Positions 9 through 7,586 of a stretch of DNA of 7,586 bases are shown piece after piece. The DNA is from a virus. The notes beneath the pieces are model-generated. The model made no database searches and was not told the origin of the DNA. It saw only the letters and a program-made list of their open reading frames with translations. Numbering within the stretch: the stretch's first letter is position 1; the number at the start of each line of letters is the position of its first letter. The stretch lies in the UHGV virus genome UHGV-1434521; one strand, written 5' to 3'. The translations under genes were made by a program, and so were the position numbers.

Positions 9-242
9 TCATTGGTCACAGACCGTAATCCACTGGCCCAGGACGTCTTTCAGGCAATGTTGGCATAAATCCAGTTTTAAGCGATTACTGTCACCAAAAA
101 TTGAACCGTATCCAGCTAAGTGATTAACAGACAGAAACTCATTGAACTCAATGTCATCTACCACCGTCTTCGCATGGCGACCACAGCGATCGCAGGTCTT
201 CGCACATAACATTACAGTATCGCTGGATGTGAAAAATTGCAT
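9..242 (-). CDS. Hypothetical small protein (77 aa) with two Cys-x2-Cys pairs, zinc-ribbon-like
   Basis: Complete ORF with stop at 9-11. ATG at 242-240 is preceded on the minus strand by GAGGAG (revcomp of 248-253) with a 5-nt spacer. Translation has C17-x2-C20 and C60-x2-C63, about 39 residues apart. No family recognised by eye. Confidence 0.55.
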   Translation of the reverse strand: MQFFTSSDTVMLCAKTCDRCGRHAKTVVDDIEFNEFLSVNHLAGYGSIFGDSNRLKLDLCQHCLKDVLGQWITVCDQ

Positions 243-313
243 TTTATCTCCTCGTAATGCTGCCGCGCCGAATCAGCAATAACGCTAAAAAAACAGAATT
301 GTTCGGCTTGGCC

Positions 314-358
314 AACCCCTGACACTAACAAAAGCAAGTTTTGTTATTGTCCGGGGTT
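314..358. other. Imperfect inverted repeat / hairpin (20-bp arms, 2 mismatches, 5-nt loop gcaag) immediately 3' of the 102-aa ORF
   Basis: aacccctgacactaacaaaa (314-333) pairs with ttttgttattgtccggggtt (339-358), 18/20 complementary. It sits directly after the stop codon at 360-362. The T-run on the transcribed strand is about 20 nt away rather than adjacent, so it is not a textbook intrinsic terminator. Confidence 0.4.
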
Positions 359-359
359 A

Positions 360-668
360 TCATATAAACCAATAGACCGTCCTTACGCCATTCTGGTTAT
401 CAATAACATAGCCGCATTGTTTCCTTAAAAATTCTTCTGCTAAATCAATGGCTTTTACAGAAATCTCATAAGAAGGAAGTAAAGTGTATCCTTTCCCTTC
501 ACTGGCAGCTGCTTTGATCGCATCCAGAGTATTATCAATCAGTAACAGAGCAAGTGATGCTTCATTTACCTGAGCCGAAGAACTTCTGGCTGCAAGTGTC
601 ATTGTTTTTGCTTCTTCCGCTGTAATCGTTCGTTCTGCCAGAGCAGATAAAATCCCATAAGAATCCAT
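360..668 (-). CDS. Hypothetical protein (102 aa), unknown function, accessory gene downstream of gIV
   Basis: Complete ORF co-directional with the phage genes. ATG at 668-666 with a weak SD-like GGGG 6 nt upstream. Predicted mostly helical with a C-terminal hydrophobic strand (VRTVYWFI). No family recognised by eye. Confidence 0.5.
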   Translation of the reverse strand: MDSYGILSALAERTITAEEAKTMTLAARSSSAQVNEASLALLLIDNTLDAIKAAASEGKGYTLLPSYEISVKAIDLAEEFLRKQCGYVIDNQNGVRTVYWFI

Positions 669-690: not shown

Positions 691-746
691 CCATTTGATG
701 GATAGCGAGCAGGGCTCACGCACCTACCCGCTATCCATCAAAGTGG
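691..746 (-). other. Long hairpin overlapping the gIV stop codon; candidate gIV terminator and/or packaging-signal-like hairpin
   Basis: ccatttgatggatagcg (691-707) pairs with cgctatccatcaaagtgg (729-746): 14 bp perfect plus 3 bp with a 1-nt bulge, 21-nt loop. In Ff phages the first hairpin after gIV is both the gIV terminator and the packaging signal; the position here is equivalent. Confidence 0.45.
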
Positions 747-2003
747 ACGAATGATATGTGCTGTAAGCAAAATATACATAATACGCTGTTCATTGCTGTC
801 TGCCTTGCTACTGAAAATCCAGCCTATAAGAGGAATTTTACTTATAACTGGAACTGAACGCTCGGCATTGCTAAACGATGAATCGATAAGCCCCCCCAAT
901 AACAACGTCTGACCATCCTTAATCTGGACTGTCGTCTGAATCTGGCGCTGATTAGTAATAATATCGGATGCCTGATCATCATTGCTGATTGAATCAGCGC
1001 GAGTGTCGATAGTCAGAACTAGTTGCCCGTTACCCATGACAACAGGCGTTACCTTGAGAGAAACGCCAACATCATGACGCTCGATAGTCTGAAACGGATT
1101 ATTTACCCCGGCAGATTCGCCCGTTACCTTTCCGGTGATAAACGGCACATTCTTACCTACGGAAATGTAACCAGTCTGACCAGACTGAGTAAGAATACGC
1201 GGCGTTGAAATCACCTTAGAGCGTGAATTACTCTGGACAGCACGCAGAGACAGCGCCAACACGTTACCATCAAAAATACCAAAAGAACCGCCCGCCGTAG
1301 AAAGAGCACTACCCAGTGCAGAAGTATTAAAGCCCCCCGCAACCTTATGACCGGATGCAGAACCTGCCGCAAACGATAAATCAACGCCATCAGACAAGCT
1401 GGTTTCAAACATCAGCGACTGAATGAGAACCTGATCGCGGGCAACATCCACAGAATTGATAAAATCGGACAGAACCGGCAGCAGCTCGTCAGGCGCAGAA
1501 ACAATCAGCGAGTTATTGCCTGGATAATCCACGACATTACCACCACCATTAGAATCAAGATAAATTTTAATCAGTTGCTGAACATCGGACGATCTAACTT
1601 TTGTCAGCTTAAAATTTCTGACCGTAAGCGCCACAGGTACTGGCTGGTAAGATGGCTCAGAAGGAAAAGTATCATAAGACTGGTTATCAGAATCATCGGA
1701 ATCCGAAACCATCTGTGAAGGTAATTTAGACGGCAAAGAGACTACCGCAGGATTGCCAGAAAGCATGACAAAACCGTTAGCATTCAGAACAGACTTAAAG
1801 AAATCATCAATATTTGCTGGATTAACATCAGCATTAAATACGGTTACGTTTCCTTTAATATCAGGATTAACAATAACAGGCTTGCCAGTTTTTGAAGAAT
1901 ACCACTGAACAAATGAGCGAACAGATGAATTATTTAAATTAACAGTTTCAGCAGAAACGCAGAATGAATAGGCAAATAAAAAAGCAACAATAACAGAGCG
2001 CAT
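738..2003 (-). CDS. IV: Filamentous phage secretin pIV (outer-membrane export channel), 421 aa precursor
   Basis: Translation reads along M13 pIV by eye for most of its length (e.g. NVPFITGKVTGESAGVNNPFQTIER, LLLGGL, SKIPLIG). The start was moved from the track's 2096 to the ATG at 2003, which gives the signal peptide MRSVIVAFLFAYSFCVSA and has AGGAG upstream. Stop TGA at 740-738. Confidence 0.93.
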   Translation of the reverse strand: MRSVIVAFLFAYSFCVSAETVNLNNSSVRSFVQWYSSKTGKPVIVNPDIKGNVTVFNADVNPANIDDFFKSVLNANGFVMLSGNPAVVSLPSKLPSQMVSDSDDSDNQSYDTFPSEPSYQPVPVALTVRNFKLTKVRSSDVQQLIKIYLDSNGGGNVVDYPGNNSLIVSAPDELLPVLSDFINSVDVARDQVLIQSLMFETSLSDGVDLSFAAGSASGHKVAGGFNTSALGSALSTAGGSFGIFDGNVLALSLRAVQSNSRSKVISTPRILTQSGQTGYISVGKNVPFITGKVTGESAGVNNPFQTIERHDVGVSLKVTPVVMGNGQLVLTIDTRADSISNDDQASDIITNQRQIQTTVQIKDGQTLLLGGLIDSSFSNAERSVPVISKIPLIGWIFSSKADSNEQRIMYILLTAHIIRPL

Positions 2004-2010
2004 AATAATA

Positions 2011-2385
2011 TTACTCCTGACAGGTAACAGTCTGTAAATAACGGCCTTTTCTAATAACAACACGACAGGCATCTTTAATATCAACGGAATAACCATCTTT
2101 AATCAAATCAAAATACTGATATTTCATACCTTTTGCATCAACAAACGTAACGGAAACGTCAAAGCCAAGTTGTGAAAAAGAATTAATAGAAAGTCGGGGT
2201 AAGTCACTGGACGAATCAGGCGTTACCGCCCTCGCCTGTTCAGCATAAGCAGATTTAATAGCTGAGATTTCATCAACATTCTTTCCAGACTGGAGCCAGA
2301 AACCAAACGCAAGCCCCAGCGCCAAAAAAGAAAGCATTAATATAAGACGGTTCGATTTGCGAAAATAAATTTTAGTGAGGCGCAT
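2011..2385 (-). CDS. XI: pXI, in-frame internal-start product of gene I (C-terminal 124 aa)
   Basis: In-frame Met241 (MRLTKIYFRK) is at the same position as the M13 pXI start (MKLTKIYLKK). ATG at 2385-2383 with GAGGA about 13 nt upstream. Inferred by homology of position only. Confidence 0.55.
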   Translation of the reverse strand: MRLTKIYFRKSNRLILMLSFLALGLAFGFWLQSGKNVDEISAIKSAYAEQARAVTPDSSSDLPRLSINSFSQLGFDVSVTFVDAKGMKYQYFDLIKDGYSVDIKDACRVVIRKGRYLQTVTCQE

Positions 2386-3105
2386 ATAATAATTAAATCC
2401 TCTGTGAACAGAAAATTGACCGTGCGTGATAAATGGTGGCAAAAGCGAAAATGCGCCATGAGGATAATTATCTGTGAACGCTTGTTTGGTATTGTAAGCA
2501 GAATAAAGAGATTTTCCTGTATATATCCATTTATCAACAGTGATTGAATTAACATTATCACCATATTTGACAATGCCAAAGTGTACCTTTGGTAAAGAAA
2601 ATCTCGCCCCTGAAACCAAATTCATAATGGAGCCAACAAAAGGAATGTTTAATTTATCTGAACGGCGACAATAAACAACATGCTCAGCAAGTGCCAGACG
2701 AGCTTGCTTATCCATTATCGAAATATCCTGAATCAAAAATATAATATCCCAGCCTAATTTTCTGGCATGTAAAAACCAGTCAATAACAGGTTGTCTGTCT
2801 TTATCACCCCATGAGCGGGAATTAAACCAAGTACCACATTCATCAAGTACAAGGAGGCCATTACGGGATTCATCGTAAGATGCATTCCCAATACCAATAG
2901 CAAGTAAATCATTTAATGAAGGCTTGTCAGGAATGCGAATAACGCGCGTTTTTTTCGCATAACGCCCAACCATAGGCATATTATGCAATTTAAGATCAAG
3001 ATTAGTGGCAACAGGACAACCCTTAGCAAGTCTTTCCTGTATTCTGGAAACACTAACAAGTGTCTTGCCTGAGCCTAATTTGCCTGTTACTACATAAACC
3101 GCCAT
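2011..3105 (-). CDS. I: Filamentous phage assembly ATPase pI (Zot-like), 364 aa
   Basis: N-terminus MAVYVVTGKLGSGKTLVS carries Walker A GKLGSGKT. Further blocks match M13 pI as recalled (LLVLDECGTWFNSRSW, IDWFLHARKLGWDIIFL, AEHVVYCRR, YNTKQAF). ATG at 3105-3103 directly follows the gVI stop. Confidence 0.95.
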   Translation of the reverse strand: MAVYVVTGKLGSGKTLVSVSRIQERLAKGCPVATNLDLKLHNMPMVGRYAKKTRVIRIPDKPSLNDLLAIGIGNASYDESRNGLLVLDECGTWFNSRSWGDKDRQPVIDWFLHARKLGWDIIFLIQDISIMDKQARLALAEHVVYCRRSDKLNIPFVGSIMNLVSGARFSLPKVHFGIVKYGDNVNSITVDKWIYTGKSLYSAYNTKQAFTDNYPHGAFSLLPPFITHGQFSVHRGFNYYMRLTKIYFRKSNRLILMLSFLALGLAFGFWLQSGKNVDEISAIKSAYAEQARAVTPDSSSDLPRLSINSFSQLGFDVSVTFVDAKGMKYQYFDLIKDGYSVDIKDACRVVIRKGRYLQTVTCQE

Positions 3106-3447
3106 TTAAATCACCCTGTTTGCATAATCAAGAAATTTTTGTTTTAAATCGAAAACAAAAACACTGATACGAGTAACCATAATAACGTTAACACACGCCT
3201 GAAAATGGTCAGGCAATACAGACGCCATTAAATGGGAGAAATCAGCAGGTAAACCGTTATACATGACCTCAGCAAGGTACTGCATTAAAAGCGTAACAGT
3301 TGTTGTAATTAATGCGACCAATGCAAAGGCGATTAATCCTGTTCTGGTAGCAAGTCGAGCTAAAAAACTCGCCACATAGCCAATAAACAAAGGAACAAGA
3401 CCAATAAGAAAACGCAACAATGCAGGAATACCTAATAATAAAGGCAT
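3106..3447 (-). CDS. VI: Minor coat protein pVI, 113 aa
   Basis: [13 protein letters not shown]... parallels M13 pVI MPVLLGIPLLLRF, with a conserved C-terminal VFDLKQK-like block. ATG at 3447-3445 overlaps the gIII stop (TGATG). The track's GTG at 3450 adds one residue and is less likely. Confidence 0.9.
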   Translation of the reverse strand: MPLLLGIPALLRFLIGLVPLFIGYVASFLARLATRTGLIAFALVALITTTVTLLMQYLAEVMYNGLPADFSHLMASVLPDHFQACVNVIMVTRISVFVFDLKQKFLDYANRVI

Positions 3448-4712
3448 CACTCACCCCCTTTGCGAAGCAATGAAGTTAAAGAAGTAAAGACATACCAGAA
3501 CGTAAGGCAATAAAAAACCCATGAAAGAACATCTTTAATAGTCAGTAATTTATCGCAACCAATATCAATCTGATAAACCTCTCCGGGAAATATAATAAAA
3601 TCAGAGCAGCCGTTACCATTGGGTAAATTAGGCAGCATAGCACCTTTATTTAAAAATGCTTCCCATAAAGCACCGTGAGAATCCTTTTCAATTCCCAATT
3701 CAGAATCAGCTAAAGTAGAAGCGCCATCTAATTCAGAGTCGCCCTTTCCATAACGAGAATCACCACCTGAAGGGTCAGCAAAACGGCCAGCCCCCCGCGT
3801 AAGATTGTTAATGGAATCGTCAAGACGATTTATATTATTCCTGGTTTGTTCATCGGCATTTTTTTTATCATCTGATGAAGTGTCTTTCTCCGTTAATTTA
3901 TCATGAATATCGCTGGCTATTTTGGGTGAAGCACCTTCGATCGCAGACTGAATATCACCTTTAGAAAGACTGGAACCACTAGAGCCACCGCCAGAACTAC
4001 CGCCACCGGACTCACCACCGCCAGACTCACCACCACCGGACTCACCACCGCCAGACTCACCACCGCTGGACTCACCACCGCCAGACTCACCACCACCATT
4101 TTGGGGGGTTGAGGGTTTATCAGAGGGGTCAGCTACAGCACCTGTAGGCTTCCATGTTGCAGCGCAAACAGTACCATCACCCTGACAAACAATGACACCA
4201 GTAGCCTCATATTCACAGCCGTTATAGTAGATATAGCGACCACCATCATATGAATCAACATTATTAAATACACCTTCTTCTGGCGGCTTCGCTTCACAAA
4301 TTTCTTCTGGTGTCGGGTCAGTAGGTTTTTCATCAGGAACAGAACGCTGAATATTACCAACAATATAAGCCGTTAAAGACCAATATTTATCCTTCTGCCC
4401 TGGTGAATCGCTGTAAGTACAATCGCCAGTAAAAACAAGACGGAATTCAGAATCAGGCCAGATACCCTCATAAGTTGGTTTAATCCGAGTAAATACACTC
4501 TGAGCACTGGATTTAGCACCCTGACAAGCGGAGGCCTGCATAGCAGCATCAATATAGTAAACCGTTATCTTAGAGCCATCCTGATTGGTTATTTGCTTAC
4601 TTTCAGCGTAGGCAGAACTTTGATAAGTGGATTTAGTAATGCTTTCCCATGACTCAGCATGTGAAAAAGGAGAAATGAGGACAGCGGAAAGAATTAATAT
4701 TTTCCTTCTCAT
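3447..4712 (-). CDS. III: Minor coat / adsorption protein pIII, 421 aa precursor
   Basis: Start moved to ATG 4712-4710 ([19 protein letters not shown] signal peptide); the track's upstream extension overlaps gVIII. Contains a block resembling the Ff TolA-binding N1 domain ([23 protein letters not shown]), a (GGGES)n linker, and a C-terminal anchor (GCDKLL...[14 protein letters not shown]) like M13 pIII. Confidence 0.9.
3972..4097 (-). repeat. Tandem 15-bp repeats inside gIII encoding the Gly-rich (GGGES)n linker
   Basis: Units ggactcaccaccgcc / agactcaccaccacc are repeated about 8 times on the plus strand and translate on the minus strand to [40 protein letters not shown]. Confidence 0.9.
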
Positions 4713-4758: not shown

Positions 4759-5001
4759 TCAAACCGCTTTTGAAGAGAATTTTTTGAAAATACGAATGGC
4801 AAGCCCAGCGCCAACCACAGCAACAACAACAGGCCATACTTTACCAATGAGATCATTTGCCTGAGTCAACAAAGCATCCATTGCCTGACCTGCATAATCA
4901 GTACCACCTGTAGCGCCTTCAGCCGCAAAAGAACTTGCAGAAATAAAAAGCGCAGTTGAAGCCAGAGCAATTTTATATTTAACAGTAGACAGAATTTTCA
5001 T
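4759..5001 (-). CDS. VIII: Major coat protein pVIII precursor (80 aa; predicted mature 54 aa)
   Basis: Signal peptide ends SFA|AEG as in M13. It has an acidic N-terminus, a hydrophobic core, and the basic tail [10 protein letters not shown], which matches the IKe/M13 C-terminus ([10 protein letters not shown] / LFKKFTSKAS) as recalled. GGAG RBS 8 nt upstream of ATG 5001-4999. Confidence 0.95.
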
Positions 5002-5204: not shown

Positions 5205-5522
5205 TTAACCTTTGATCTCTGCGATGCCACCATCGGAAGAAACATTATAAGTTACACCTTCCCTACCCTCCATTGACCACGCACGGACATAGACAGGAAT
5301 TTGAACTAATTTCCCAATGAAAGCATTCGCCTGGTTCATTAGACCTGCGTTAACGAGAGCCTGAGAAACTCGAATAATAATTTGATCCTGCTTTGTACCA
5401 CCAAAACCATCAGGTATTTCAAGGCCAATACCAATTTCATTATAATAGCCCTGACCATTAACTTTATTACGTTGGCGGGCTCCCAACATTTTACCCTTAA
5501 CGAAAAGACCATAATTAGACAT
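5205..5522 (-). CDS. Gene-V-position protein (105 aa); putative ssDNA-binding/replication-switch protein by synteny only
   Basis: Fills the gap between gII and gVII exactly, with a strong AAGGAA RBS 6 nt upstream. The sequence (Gly-rich, GFGG) does not resemble M13 gVp as I recall it, so the function is assigned by position, not homology. Confidence 0.6.
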   Translation of the reverse strand: MSNYGLFVKGKMLGARQRNKVNGQGYYNEIGIGLEIPDGFGGTKQDQIIIRVSQALVNAGLMNQANAFIGKLVQIPVYVRAWSMEGREGVTYNVSSDGGIAEIKG

Positions 5523-5533
5523 ATTACTTTCCT

Positions 5534-5848
5534 TTAATGCCAGCTACTGGCGTGCGAAATACGGTTGTAATCGAAAATAAAACCTTTCTCATAAATCCAT
5601 AAGGGGATTTCCGCTGGCTTGGCTTCCAGCGTTCTTATTAGCGGAACAACGTTATTAGAGTCTGGTGAATCACAATAGAAATTAATATCGATACCGAACG
5701 AAAGCAATTCTCTTCTATGGCGATAAAAAGTGTTATGAGGTAACATTTCTTTCATGTTAGCCCCTTGTTTCCAAAGTAAATAAGTTGACTGTATTTTTCT
5801 TGGCAGTTTCGTTATTTTTTCATCACTTAAAATAGCATTCTGATTCAT
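5534..5848 (-). CDS. X: pX, in-frame internal-start product of gene II (C-terminal 104 aa)
   Basis: In-frame ATG at 5848-5846 (MNQNAILSDE...) is preceded by GGGAG with a 7-nt spacer, and parallels the M13 pX start (MNIYDDSAVLD). The alternative in-frame ATG at 5896 lacks an SD. Confidence 0.5.
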   Translation of the reverse strand: MNQNAILSDEKITKLPRKIQSTYLLWKQGANMKEMLPHNTFYRHRRELLSFGIDINFYCDSPDSNNVVPLIRTLEAKPAEIPLWIYEKGFIFDYNRISHASSWH

Positions 5849-6628
5849 TTCTATTCTCCCTACATATTCAGAGAATAATTGACGTGGTGTTTTCATATTC
5901 CAGTTAGCGCCAAGCGTTAAATTTAAATCAATAAGCTCAGTTGTTCTTAATGTTAATTCAATACGTAATTTATCTTTCGTCCAGTCCAGTAACCCGGCTC
6001 GTACAAACTCTTCGGCTATCTGGTGCCCTTTTTTACCAGAAACGTGTTCATCATATTTTGAATAAAATTTCAGACTCCATCGACGGGAGTTTTTACCTAA
6101 ATAAACTGTACCGCCTTTCCCACATGCGCGACCATGGCGTGTTTTAGCTTTAAATTCGGCGGCATAAAGCCATGATCTGACATTTTCCAGCGTAGATAAT
6201 GAATACATGTAATTAATGTCAACACGTGAAATTTTATACTGACCTGCCATAACGGCTTTATAAGACGCTAAATCATGAGGAATATTCAATAAGGATAAAA
6301 TCCTGGCATAGACCGTCAACATGAGCCCTTGTATATCATCCGACCCAACAACAGAATGCCCCTGCAGAAACTTGGAAGGATTACCATCAATGTACAAATG
6401 TGTCGCTTTACCTTCGCCATTAGATCCTATCGATCGTACTTTCATCGTTGCTTCATGCGAACCGCGAACAGTCAGTCGCTTAACGGTTTCCCACTCAATT
6501 GCACCGTCAGCATCAACGCTGACAACACTCCCCGCCGGAAGCGGTTTGTGTGTGCAAGGGAAAATCCCGGTAAGCCAATCGATCACGAATAAATCCTCAA
6601 AATTGCAAAAATGACGACTTACTAACAC
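5534..6628 (-). CDS. II: Rolling-circle replication initiator pII (Phage_CRI / gene II family), 364 aa
   Basis: The C-terminal block NNVVPLIRTL matches M13 pII NNVVPLVRFI, and an internal block LQGHSVVGSDD matches LQGHNVFGTTD. It is first in the gene order. The apparent start is GTG at 6628-6626 with no obvious SD, so the start assignment is uncertain. Confidence 0.88.
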   Translation of the reverse strand: MLVSRHFCNFEDLFVIDWLTGIFPCTHKPLPAGSVVSVDADGAIEWETVKRLTVRGSHEATMKVRSIGSNGEGKATHLYIDGNPSKFLQGHSVVGSDDIQGLMLTVYARILSLLNIPHDLASYKAVMAGQYKISRVDINYMYSLSTLENVRSWLYAAEFKAKTRHGRACGKGGTVYLGKNSRRWSLKFYSKYDEHVSGKKGHQIAEEFVRAGLLDWTKDKLRIELTLRTTELIDLNLTLGANWNMKTPRQLFSEYVGRIEMNQNAILSDEKITKLPRKIQSTYLLWKQGANMKEMLPHNTFYRHRRELLSFGIDINFYCDSPDSNNVVPLIRTLEAKPAEIPLWIYEKGFIFDYNRISHASSWH

Positions 6629-6755: not shown

Positions 6756-6938
6756 ATGGCAAAGCGCACGACTTATAACGTGACGGAAGAAAGAAAAATG
6801 AAACTAGAACGACTGGCTATAAATGCCAGTGTAAAACTAGGAAAAACAATTACATGGACAGAGATTTTAGGTTATCTGATTGATAACTACTCTAAAGATG
6901 CAGCAGAAGATCTCATGTCTGCCAAACAAAAGGATTAA
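6756..6938 (+). CDS. Small ribbon-helix-helix-like DNA-binding protein (60 aa); candidate repressor or antitoxin
   Basis: MAKRTTYNVTEERKMKLERLAINASVKLGKTITWTEILGYLIDNY fits a strand / helix / G-x-T turn / helix RHH pattern (CopG/Arc-like). It is divergently transcribed from gII. Weak RBS. Confidence 0.55.
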   Translation: MAKRTTYNVTEERKMKLERLAINASVKLGKTITWTEILGYLIDNYSKDAAEDLMSAKQKD

Positions 6939-7090: not shown

Positions 7091-7586
7091 ATGATCACTA
7101 TAGAAGAAGCAACATCGGTCCATGAATATTTAACAAATTACTATCAAAACTCTGATGATCCTATCTCTCCTCCGGGAATAAAAAACATAGAGCTTTTAGA
7201 GTCTGCCATAGCAAGACCTTTTATGACCATGAACAGAAAGGATGTCTATCCAGATGATTTAGATAAAGCCGCAGCTCTATTTCATGGTGTCATATCCAAC
7301 CACTGTTTCCATAATGGTAATAAAAGAACAGCACTTCTACTAACCATGTGCTTTTTAGACCGAGCTGGATATTGGCTGGATAAGTGTGATGACCTGCAAC
7401 TCTTTGAATTTACAAGAGGTGTTGCGGCACATGAGATATGTGAAAATAGAATTGATGAAATAAAAACAATCAAGGCATTTTTCCGAAGTAATTCACGGAA
7501 GAAAAAAATCACAGATGAACAATTGAGTTTTATTGCATTAAGCAGGCATCTAACCAACGCAGGTTTCAATATAGAAGACGATGGTG
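7091..7586 (+). CDS. Doc/Fic-family (death-on-curing-like) toxin-domain protein, 3'-truncated by the window edge (at least 165 aa)
   Basis: Manual translation from ATG 7091: MITIEEATSVHEYLTNYYQNSDDPISPPGIKNIELLESAIARPFMTMNRKDVYPDDLDKAAALFHGVISNHCFHNGNKRTALLLTMCFLDRAGYWL... It contains HCFHNGNKR, matching the Doc-type motif HxFx(D/N)(G/A)NKR, and the N-terminal region parallels P1 Doc as recalled. No stop before the window end, which is why it is absent from the ORF track. Confidence 0.8.
   Translation, partial: MITIEEATSVHEYLTNYYQNSDDPISPPGIKNIELLESAIARPFMTMNRKDVYPDDLDKAAALFHGVISNHCFHNGNKRTALLLTMCFLDRAGYWLDKCDDLQLFEFTRGVAAHEICENRIDEIKTIKAFFRSNSRKKKITDEQLSFIALSRHLTNAGFNIEDDG

What the first reader, a model, noticed from the sequence alone, without database searches (positions are those of the whole stretch)
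9..668. Two-gene accessory cassette (102-aa unknown plus 77-aa Cys4 zinc-ribbon-like protein) inserted where Ff phages have origin hairpins
Both ORFs are co-directional with the phage operon and lie downstream of the gIV hairpin. The second has a strong SD (GAGGAG) and paired CxxC motifs. A 45-nt hairpin (314-358) lies between them. I recognise neither protein. Small protein pairs in this position could be a regulator pair, a toxin-antitoxin, or an anti-defence or host-modulating moron.
Basis: partly seen in the sequence, partly recalled or inferred. Interest (0 to 1): 0.65.

Follow-up and report, generated by a model that had tools for sequence, protein, structure and literature searches.

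The report
Known accessory genes of UPΦ phage
The two small genes are real, but they are the already published, still uncharacterised "h1" and "h2" accessory genes of the UPΦ filamentous prophage of E. coli; they are two independent cargo genes, not a pair, and the second is a zinc-ribbon module that elsewhere forms part of antitoxin-like proteins.

Summary
ORF102 (360-668) and ORF77 (9-242) lie on the minus strand downstream of gIV, with a strong SD before ORF77, two CxxC pairs and a 45-nt hairpin between them. Both are under purifying selection.

The window is a UPΦ-type dif-integrating inovirus (Shapiro & Putonti 2020). The ORFs are almost certainly that paper's h1 and h2, so the cassette is already described. 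Its function is still unknown.

New here:
1. The ORFs are not an obligate pair. A Salmonella relative keeps ORF102 but has unrelated sequence in place of ORF77. ORF77 homologues occur without ORF102 in other inoviruses and on plasmids.
2. The hairpin is part of a ~100-nt structured element (covariation-supported) that travels with the gII/gV-attP module and bounds a swappable cargo slot next to attP.
3. ORF77 is not homologue-less. It belongs to a large unannotated Cys4 zinc-ribbon family (1,656 clusters). About 24% of sampled members are fused N-terminally to other domains, including antitoxin-type modules such as PF09722. Some sit inside TA operons.
4. ORF102 is a lineage-restricted orphan.

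The most likely role is non-essential conflict or fitness cargo. This is low-confidence inference.

The parts
360..668 (-). ORF102 (probable UPΦ h1; WP_000378924.1). 102 aa, acidic (pI 4.7), soluble. Fast-evolving helical N-terminal 35 aa plus a conserved C-terminal alpha/beta domain. A lineage-restricted orphan.
   Evidence: phrog_4115, 2e-68; 7 hits among 1.84e9 representatives; dN/dS 0.14; C-terminal domain 0.08
9..242 (-). ORF77 (probable UPΦ h2; WP_001159442.1). 77 aa, acidic (pI 5.4) Cys4 zinc-ribbon protein with signature CDRC..EFxEF..GYGSxFGDG..LDLCQHCxKxxLGxW. It occupies the swappable cargo slot next to attP/dif.
   Evidence: phrog_5435; 1,656 clusters; pLDDT 84.8
248..253 (-). Shine-Dalgarno GAGGAG, 5 nt upstream of the ORF77 ATG (242)
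   Evidence: sequence
314..358 (-). Hairpin 1 of the conserved structured element. It starts 1 nt after the ORF102 stop codon.
   Evidence: dG -18, z -5.8; 18 pairs, 5 with compensatory double changes, 96% of cells paired, 0/500 shuffles reach the observed values
256..361 (-). Structured element of about 100 nt: hairpin 1 plus helix 2 (304-312 pairing with 262-270), which encloses a T-rich loop. Conserved at 74-85% identity in CUS-1/YpfΦ-type phages that share only gII/gV with this phage. It forms the upstream boundary of the variable slot.
   Evidence: (117 further E. coli genomes); no Rfam family above threshold; not an intrinsic terminator by the scan
693..743 (-). Hairpin overlapping the gIV stop codon, upstream of ORF102. 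Candidate packaging or structural signal; no T-run follows it.
   Evidence: dG -17.9, z -6.3; conserved in the Salmonella relative with one compensatory change; no terminator found
738..2003 (-). gIV secretin: the last morphogenesis gene and the upstream neighbour of the accessory region (context)

Best explanation
The window is a UPΦ-type filamentous prophage. It has IKe/I2-2-like morphogenesis genes and a YpfΦ-like gII/gV module, and it integrates at dif by XerCD. The finding is its accessory region, almost certainly the published genes h1 (ORF102) and h2 (ORF77). SHOWN: both are real, selected, cytoplasmic, acidic proteins encoded inside the phage circle in the order gIV - hairpin - ORF102 - structured element - ORF77 - attP. 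SHOWN: they are not one unit. There are two cargo positions separated by a conserved structured cis element of about 100 nt. That element travels with the gII/gV-attP block. ORF77 sits in a slot between the element and attP whose content is swapped among related phages: ORF77, an unrelated 65-aa ORF, or non-homologous sequence. SHOWN: ORF77 is a Cys4 zinc ribbon from a large, unannotated family found in inoviruses, tailed-phage contigs, small and large plasmids and chromosomal islands. In about a quarter of sampled members the same module is the N-terminal part of longer proteins. Some of their C-terminal parts are antitoxin-type modules (ParS/MbcA PF09722, DUF4926, a weak CcdA-like tail), and some members are appended to HigBA or VapBC-like operons. 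INFERRED (about 30%): stand-alone ORF77 is a small protein-binding zinc-ribbon module that acts in toxin-antitoxin or defence-type conflicts between mobile elements and the host. On this reading it gives the phage or lysogen a fitness benefit and is not needed for virion production. INFERRED (weak): ORF102 is an independent, lineage-specific accessory protein with a conserved C-terminal alpha/beta domain and a rapidly diverging N-terminal region. Its activity cannot be assigned.
For: Phage identity: core genes; IKe/PEar gIV similarity; gII 84%, gV 94% but gIV 27% identity to the UTI89-type (CUS/Ypf) prophage; GGGES repeats in g3p. These match the description in PMC7307601. Inside the phage: tandem copies and the 7,938-bp circle. 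Real genes. Separability: Salmonella relatives have a 60%-identity ORF102 and no ORF77. ORF77 homologues occur without ORF102 in a Klebsiella Rep_trans inovirus, in CUS/Ypf-type phages L027 and L115/L116, on Rep3 plasmids and on plasmid-like contigs. Slot structure: the alignment shows the element and the last ~55 nt before dif conserved while the ~290-nt ORF77 block is replaced. The UTI89 phage has unrelated 82-aa and 65-aa ORFs around the same element. A perfect dif lies 39 nt (UPΦ, L027) or 172-213 nt (Klebsiella type) after the ORF77 gene. Element. Family: 1,656 clusters; conserved Cys4; model pLDDT 84.8. 38 of 159 members have C-terminal extensions of 43-229 aa. PF09722 fusion E = 4e-14; DUF4926; weak CcdA and DUF433 hits. 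TA-operon contexts L093, L103, L036, L061, L068. SNase, PIN, HTH and PF09722 neighbours. The family core is acidic in 70% of members and basic in 3%, which favours protein binding over DNA binding. No transmembrane or signal segment.
Confidence: 0.55

Rival explanations
1. ORF102 and ORF77 form a type II toxin-antitoxin pair (ORF102 antitoxin upstream, ORF77 toxin downstream) that stabilises the unstable episomal or prophage form by addiction.
For: The gene order and sizes fit. Both are small cytoplasmic proteins. ORF77-family members sit in the toxin position downstream of ParS-like antitoxins (L061, L068) or upstream of a HigA-like gene (L036), and are fused to antitoxin-type domains. Orphan antitoxins, as in the Salmonella relative, are tolerated. 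Related inoviruses are unstable episomes (PMC4266046).
Against: The pair is separable in both directions. ORF77 homologues stand alone, with no ORF102-like or other adjacent partner, in Klebsiella, Phytobacter and other inoviruses, which a toxin should not tolerate. The genes are 117 nt apart with a strong conserved structure between them and ORF77 has its own strong SD, unlike typical coupled TA genes. There is no hit to any toxin or antitoxin family for either whole protein.
Confidence: 0.12
2. The two proteins are an interacting regulator pair that controls UPΦ replication, lysogeny or superinfection immunity (the UPΦ authors' guess that h1 and h2 interact).
For: They co-occur in all 229 UPΦ genomes as defined in PMC7307601. 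They lie next to the replication/integration module. The ORF102 C-terminal domain weakly resembles winged-helix, Smr and R3H folds.
Against: UPΦ genomes were defined by containing every gene, so that co-occurrence is partly circular. A close relative with 89-94% identical core genes lacks ORF77. CUS/Ypf-type phages with the same gII/gV and element carry ORF77 without ORF102 or neither gene. Both proteins are acidic. The fold matches are weak and mixed.
Confidence: 0.15
3. ORF77 is a DNA-binding zinc-ribbon factor: an autoregulator, like the N-terminal domains of classical antitoxins, or an accessory factor for XerCD recombination at the adjacent attP (XafT-like).
For: In the fusions it occupies the position held by the DNA-binding domain in ParS/MbcA- and CcdA-type antitoxins. 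In two unrelated inovirus lineages it is the gene nearest dif.
Against: The family core is predominantly acidic (median pI 5.5). No dif-like site lies near roughly 150 other family members. On Rep3 plasmids the Xer-like site is 4 kb away. There is no HTH or DUF3653 hit. The Salmonella relative integrates at dif without ORF77.
Confidence: 0.08
4. The ORFs are host-directed virulence morons equivalent to ctxAB, which occupies the same position in CTXΦ.
For: They occupy the same genomic position as ctxAB (PMC4266046, PMC7307601). UPΦ is enriched in urinary isolates.
Against: There is no signal peptide or transmembrane segment (maximum 19-aa hydropathy 1.2 and 0.7) and no similarity to toxins or effectors. 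The ORF77 family is spread through environmental bacteria and phages with no link to animal hosts.
Confidence: 0.05

Closest known systems
UPΦ901 genes h1 and h2 (Shapiro & Putonti 2020, Virus Evolution; PMC7307601)
   Same: A dif-integrating, tandemly repeated inovirus of E. coli, Salmonella, Klebsiella and Citrobacter with IKe/I2-2-like structural genes, YpfΦ-like gII/gV, a GGGES-repeat g3p, two forward ORFs of unknown function between gIV and dif, and reverse-oriented h3 (60 aa) plus variable cargo beyond dif. All of these were seen here.
   Different: The paper reports no homologues and suggests that the two proteins interact. Here h2 has a very large family and the two genes are separable. 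This window's variant carries a Fic/DOC gene instead of h4/h5. Identity to h1/h2 is inferred from the text, not from a sequence comparison with UPΦ901.
YPO2280a/YPO2281 of YpfΦ and their CUS-1 homologues (Derbise & Carniel 2014; PMC4266046)
   Same: Two small ORFs of unknown function between the secretin gene and attR/dif of a dif-integrating inovirus. The same structured intergenic element and attP-proximal sequence are present in the CUS/Ypf-type prophage of UTI89.
   Different: The proteins are unrelated. The UTI89-type ORFs (82 aa and 65 aa) show no similarity to ORF102 or ORF77. I first equated the two sets and then corrected this.
ctxAB position in CTXΦ (cargo next to attP in an XerCD-integrating inovirus)
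   Same: Accessory cargo downstream of the morphogenesis genes, adjacent to an attP that folds as a forked hairpin of two inverted dif-like sites in the packaged strand.
   Different: There are no secretion signals and no toxin homology; the proteins are small and cytoplasmic.
Composite type II antitoxins with a C-terminal toxin-binding module (ParS/MbcA/Xre-RES antitoxins, PF09722; CcdA)
   Same: Relatives of ORF77 carry PF09722 (E = 4e-14), DUF4926 or a CcdA-like tail C-terminal to the zinc-ribbon module. Some lie in HigBA or VapBC-like operons.
   Different: ORF77 itself has no toxin-binding tail. No RES or CcdB gene was seen next to the fused forms. The N-terminal module is an acidic zinc ribbon, not an HTH or RHH.
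MqsA N-terminal zinc-ribbon domain
   Same: A Cys4 zinc ribbon followed by a helix, in an antitoxin setting.

Membership tests
UPΦ viruses (h1/h2 accessory genes) | Inovirus with IKe/I2-2-like morphogenesis genes and gII/gV more than 85% identical to YpfΦ, with the rest unrelated to YpfΦ | tested here: met
   gIV matches IKe/PEar phages at 80% nt identity. Against the CUS/Ypf-type prophage of UTI89: gII 84%, gV 94%, gIV 27%.
UPΦ viruses (h1/h2 accessory genes) | Integrated at dif, often in tandem, with two forward ORFs of unknown function between gIV and dif and reverse ORFs beyond dif | tested here: met
   Perfect dif 39 nt after ORF77; tandem copies; gene order.
UPΦ viruses (h1/h2 accessory genes) | Sequence identity to the UPΦ901 reference genome | not tested
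   The UPΦ901 sequence is not in the searched collections (no INPHARED match). The assignment rests on the published description.
Type II toxin-antitoxin pair (ORF102 + ORF77) | The two genes are inherited together as a unit | tested here: not met
   ORF102 occurs without ORF77; ORF77 homologues occur without ORF102.
Type II toxin-antitoxin pair (ORF102 + ORF77) | Tightly coupled or overlapping genes in one small operon | tested here: not met
   There is a 117-nt spacer containing a conserved two-helix structure, and ORF77 has its own SD.
Type II toxin-antitoxin pair (ORF102 + ORF77) | One partner belongs to a known toxin or antitoxin family | tested here: inconclusive
   No Pfam, NCBIfam or PADLOC hit for either protein, but the ORF77 module is fused to antitoxin-type domains in relatives.
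Type II toxin-antitoxin pair (ORF102 + ORF77) | Toxicity of one protein and neutralisation by the other | not testable with these tools
   This needs expression assays.
Cys4 zinc ribbon | Two CxxC knuckles conserved across the family | tested here: met
   C20, C60 and C63 are invariant and C17 is at least 90% conserved in 60 diverse sequences. One subgroup (P0018) has Ser at the first Cys.
Cys4 zinc ribbon | Beta-hairpin knuckle architecture in the 3D structure | tested here: inconclusive
Cys4 zinc ribbon | Binds zinc | not testable with these tools
   Needs metal analysis of purified protein.
MqsA-type antitoxin N-terminal domain | Profile or sequence similarity to the MqsA N-terminal domain | tested here: not met
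   hhalign probability 0.7%.
Xer recombination accessory factor (XafT-like) | DUF3653-type HTH protein consistently encoded next to the element's dif-like site | tested here: not met
   No such domain. dif adjacency is seen only in enterobacterial inoviruses, not in about 150 other family loci. A relative integrates at dif without ORF77.
Intrinsic (rho-independent) terminator (hairpin 314-358) | GC-rich stem immediately followed by a T-run | tested here: not met
   The terminator scan finds none in 1-900. The T7 run lies 21 nt after the stem, inside the loop of helix 2.
Ff-type origin or packaging hairpins | Cis-acting function in minus-strand priming or packaging of the plus strand | not testable with these tools
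   Only indirect evidence: covariation and linkage to the gII/gV-attP block. No similarity to any Rfam family.
Known anti-phage defence or anti-defence proteins | Match to a curated defence-system model | tested here: not met
   PADLOC gives no significant hit.

The most novel reading that the evidence does not exclude
The ORF77 (h2) zinc-ribbon module defines a widespread, so far unannotated building block of toxin-antitoxin and defence-type systems. It would be a new antitoxin or sensor domain, or possibly a miniature toxin, given its eight near-invariant polar residues and its occurrence in the 'toxin position' next to ParS- and HigA-like genes. Filamentous phages and small plasmids would carry a stand-alone copy as an anti-addiction or anti-defence device. 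Separately, the ~100-nt structured element next to it may be the unrecognised minus-strand origin or packaging signal of the UPΦ and CUS-1/YpfΦ phages.
Probability: 0.25. Interest if true: 0.6.

Novelty: already known. Interest (0 to 1): 0.3.

Why it matters
UPΦ and the related CUS-1/YpfΦ phages are common in extraintestinal E. coli, Salmonella, Klebsiella and Y. pestis. Their cargo next to attP occupies the position where CTXΦ carries cholera toxin, so these genes are the obvious candidates for any fitness effect of the prophage. The published view is that h1 and h2 have no homologues and probably interact. This analysis refines that view in four ways:
- h2 belongs to a very large mobile-element family that is linked by domain fusions to antitoxin modules.
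- h1 is a true orphan.
- The two genes are independently exchangeable.
- The hairpin between them is part of a conserved structured element of the replication/integration module.

This gives concrete experiments, but it does not reveal a new kind of system.

Tried and rejected
1. I first equated the ORFs with YPO2280a/YPO2281 of YpfΦ/CUS-1 on the basis of the 2014 review. I rejected this after finding the UPΦ paper and measuring per-gene identities. The CUS/Ypf-type small ORFs are unrelated.
2. Xer accessory factor idea: rejected, because dif adjacency is not a property of the family.
3. MqsA-like zinc-ribbon homology: rejected.
4. Plasmid leading-region or ssDNA-promoter idea, for ORF77 and for the hairpin element. 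The element occurs only in these inoviruses. Large-plasmid contexts are not leading regions. A plus-strand hairpin cannot serve as the template for sense ORF77 mRNA.
5. Intrinsic terminator reading of the hairpins: not supported.
6. Known RNA family: only sub-threshold miRNA-model noise.
7. A recurrent G2P-ORF102 fusion suggested by the cluster listing turned out to be a clustering artefact caused by one chimeric sequence.
10. The CcdA-tail similarity of the 102-aa ORF77 relatives stays weak (Pfam E = 0.007, BLASTP E = 0.009), and no ccdB gene is adjacent.

Full report
OBSERVATION. All the phage genes in the window lie on the minus strand: gII 5534-6628, gV 5205-5522, gVIII 4759-5001, gIII, gVI 3106-3450, gI 2011-3105 and gIV 738-2003/2096. 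Each has a clear Pfam assignment (Phage_CRI/G2P, G5P, G3P pilus-binding, Zot, Secretin). ORF77 is preceded by GAGGAG, 5 nt from its ATG. It contains C17-x2-C20 and C60-x2-C63. The 45-nt hairpin at 314-358 folds at -18 kcal/mol (z -5.8). A second hairpin overlaps the gIV stop codon (-17.9 kcal/mol, z -6.3). Both ORFs are genuine genes. They match PHROG families of unknown function at 2e-68 and 4.5e-46. Against diverged homologues they show dN/dS of 0.14 (ORF102; 0.08 in its C-terminal two-thirds, 0.28 in the first 35 codons) and 0.06-0.11 (ORF77). Their exact sequences are on at least 1,000 contigs each, in about 20 Enterobacterales taxa, and are always called hypothetical.

WHAT THE ELEMENT IS. 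62 of 5,426 complete E. coli genomes match the window, and 47 cover at least 80% of it at 99% identity or more. The prophage sits at dif next to hipBA. In strain KFu015 it is in tandem copies, and in UM146 a perfect 28-bp dif lies 39 nt beyond the ORF77 stop codon. A 7,938-bp circular "plasmid" of Salmonella is the replicative form. It gives the full order: gII...gIV, ORF102, ORF77, attP, then a Fic/DOC-family gene and a 60-aa ORF on the opposite strand. I first took the phage for CUS-1/YpfΦ and the ORFs for YPO2280a/YPO2281. That was wrong.

[quoted passage not shown] The window's gIV matches IKe at 80% nt identity. Compared with the prophage at dif of UTI89 (an O18:K1:H7 strain, the CUS-1 host clone), gII is 84% and gV 94% identical but gIV only 27%. 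The window is therefore a UPΦ virus, and ORF102 and ORF77 are almost certainly h1 and h2. [quoted passage not shown] The finding is thus already published as an observation, with its function open.

NOT A PAIR. A Salmonella relative (core proteins 80-94% identical, except g3p at 52%) has a 60%-identical ORF102 at the same place but no ORF77. An alignment of the interval from the ORF102 stop to dif is informative. The first ~100 nt (hairpin and T-run) and the last ~55 nt before dif are conserved. The ~290 nt holding ORF77 are replaced by unrelated sequence.

Conversely, ORF77 homologues occur without any ORF102 in several settings:
- As the last gene before dif in an unrelated Klebsiella inovirus with a Rep_trans initiator (56% identity).
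- In CUS/Ypf-type phages of Phytobacter and others (79% and 64% identity).
- On ~7-kb Rep3 plasmids of Proteus and Providencia.
- On plasmid-like contigs.

The UTI89-type phage has, at the equivalent two positions, an 82-aa and a 65-aa ORF unrelated to ORF102 and ORF77. So there are two cargo positions, each filled independently.

THE HAIRPIN BELONGS TO A CONSERVED CIS ELEMENT. The ORF102-ORF77 spacer (window 256-361) is found at about 85% identity in 117 further E. coli genomes that carry the CUS/Ypf-type phage. It is also found in every locus that has this clade's gII/gV, with or without ORF102 or ORF77, but not in the Klebsiella inovirus with a different Rep. In a nine-sequence alignment, hairpin 1 has 18 pairs. 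Five of them show compensatory double changes, 96% of cells are paired, and no shuffle out of 500 reaches the observed values. Sliding the partner columns collapses pairing to 33-51%. RNAalifold adds a second helix (304-312 with 262-270), also with compensatory changes, which encloses a T-rich loop.

The element is not an intrinsic terminator by the scan. It matches no Rfam family. It is absent from other plasmids and phage records. On the circular map, the element, the slot, attP, h3 and gII-gV are contiguous, so the element is part of the replication/integration module. Whether it acts as RNA (5' UTR of the slot gene) or as single-stranded DNA (minus-strand origin or packaging signal) cannot be decided here. 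One puzzle is that it also precedes the ORF77 homologue on plasmid-like contigs that lack gII. Just outside the window, attP folds in the packaged strand as a long bulged hairpin that pairs two inverted dif-like sites (-33.7 kcal/mol, z -5.9). This is the CTXΦ-type arrangement.

In 38 of 159 members in the fetched loci, the module is followed by a C-terminal extension of 43-229 aa, and the module is always N-terminal. Identified partners are:
- The ParS/MbcA toxin-binding domain PF09722 (E = 4e-14).
- DUF4926.
- Weak DUF433 and CcdA-tail matches.
- A tail I recognise from memory as VapB/DUF2281-like. This was not tested.

Stand-alone members are sometimes embedded in TA operons: HigB-HigA-ORF77-like, RHH-PIN-ORF77-like, ORF77-like overlapping a HigA-like gene, and ParS-like antitoxin followed by ORF77-like. 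Long fused forms are followed by an SNase-family nuclease gene. Over all 124 non-redundant close neighbours, however, no partner dominates, and most are ordinary phage accessory genes. Perfect dif sites follow the gene only in enterobacterial inoviruses. Large-plasmid contexts are not leading regions.

MECHANISM. What is shown is the anatomy: two independent cargo genes flanking a conserved structured element, in the attP-proximal accessory region of a UPΦ phage. What is inferred is the function. For ORF77, several things together favour a small protein-binding module that works in toxin-antitoxin or defence-type conflicts: its spread across mobile elements, its acidic zinc-ribbon core, its recurrent N-terminal fusion to antitoxin-type toxin-binding modules, and its occasional embedding in TA operons. 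I put this at about 30%. A dedicated TA pair with ORF102 (12%), an interacting regulator pair (15%), a DNA-binding or Xer factor (8%) and a host-directed virulence factor (5%) are less likely, for the reasons given under the rival explanations. For ORF102 no activity can be proposed beyond that of an independent, lineage-specific accessory protein.

VERDICT. The cassette is already known as UPΦ h1/h2, of unknown function. The added value is the large family and domain-fusion context of h2, the orphan status of h1, their independence from each other, and the conserved structured element between them. Interest is modest.

Noticed in passing
window 7106-7586 (+), running off the end; full gene at L024 2138-2872 (-): A 244-aa Fic/DOC-family gene (Pfam Fic, 4.6e-14), annotated in RefSeq as a death-on-curing toxin, with no obvious Phd-type partner. 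It is variable cargo on the far side of attP. The UM146 variant instead carries three other ORFs there, including an 'ECs_2282 family zinc-binding protein' with a weak hit to the Lar restriction-alleviation family (E = 9e-4).
   Followed up: partly
just outside window position 1; L024 1996-2140 (+), L001 about 5870-5970: attP consists of two inverted dif-like sites flanking a GC hairpin. In the packaged strand they fold into a long bulged hairpin (dG -33.7, z -5.9), the CTXΦ-type attP. The tandem-copy junction carries an imperfect dif, and the outer junction carries a perfect dif.
   Followed up: partly
window about 693-743 (-): A near-perfect hairpin of more than 20 bp overlaps the gIV stop codon. 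It is conserved in the Salmonella relative with one compensatory A:T to C:G change, and no T-run follows it. It is a candidate packaging signal, by analogy with the Ff signal downstream of gIV.
   Followed up: partly
window 6756-6938 (+): A 60-aa ORF (phrog_2503; probably UPΦ h3), divergent from gII and conserved in nearly all copies. It is only 42% identical in the Salmonella relative. It is probably the phage repressor or regulator.
   Followed up: no
L187 5777-6419 (UTI89 chromosome, CUS-1/YpfΦ-type prophage): An 82-aa Arg-rich ORF and a 65-aa ORF flank the same structured element before dif. They are probably the YPO2280a/YPO2281 homologues, and neither matches any Pfam family.
   Followed up: partly
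L003 about 8430-8700 and L116 about 4150-4450: The sequence that replaces ORF77 in the Salmonella UPΦ relative is homologous to a block lying downstream of an ORF77-CcdA-tail gene in another inovirus. This is a second exchangeable block of unknown nature, with no convincing ORF.
   Followed up: no
E. coli genomes (MB51; AZ184 and 1434; EC5502): Some prophage copies carry IS1 or ISEcp1 insertions. Strain EC5502 has 16 separate matching places.
   Followed up: no
P0005 (Citrobacter youngae, 3.5-kb contig): A single chimeric ORF joins residues 1-43 of G2P to residues 35-102 of ORF102. It is either a deletion derivative (miniphage-like) or a misassembly. It also caused G2P fragments to be clustered with ORF102 in the protein collection.
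   Followed up: partly
L011, L025, L189 (Proteus/Providencia Rep3 plasmids): ORF77-like genes on ~7-kb plasmids lie beside a SIR2-family gene and a ParE/DUF6290 TA pair, about 1.7 kb upstream of rep, with no annotated gene in between.
   Followed up: no
window 3917-4099: A GC-rich (55%) run of GGGES repeats lies in the g3p linker. This is the hypervariable region noted in the UPΦ paper.
   Followed up: no
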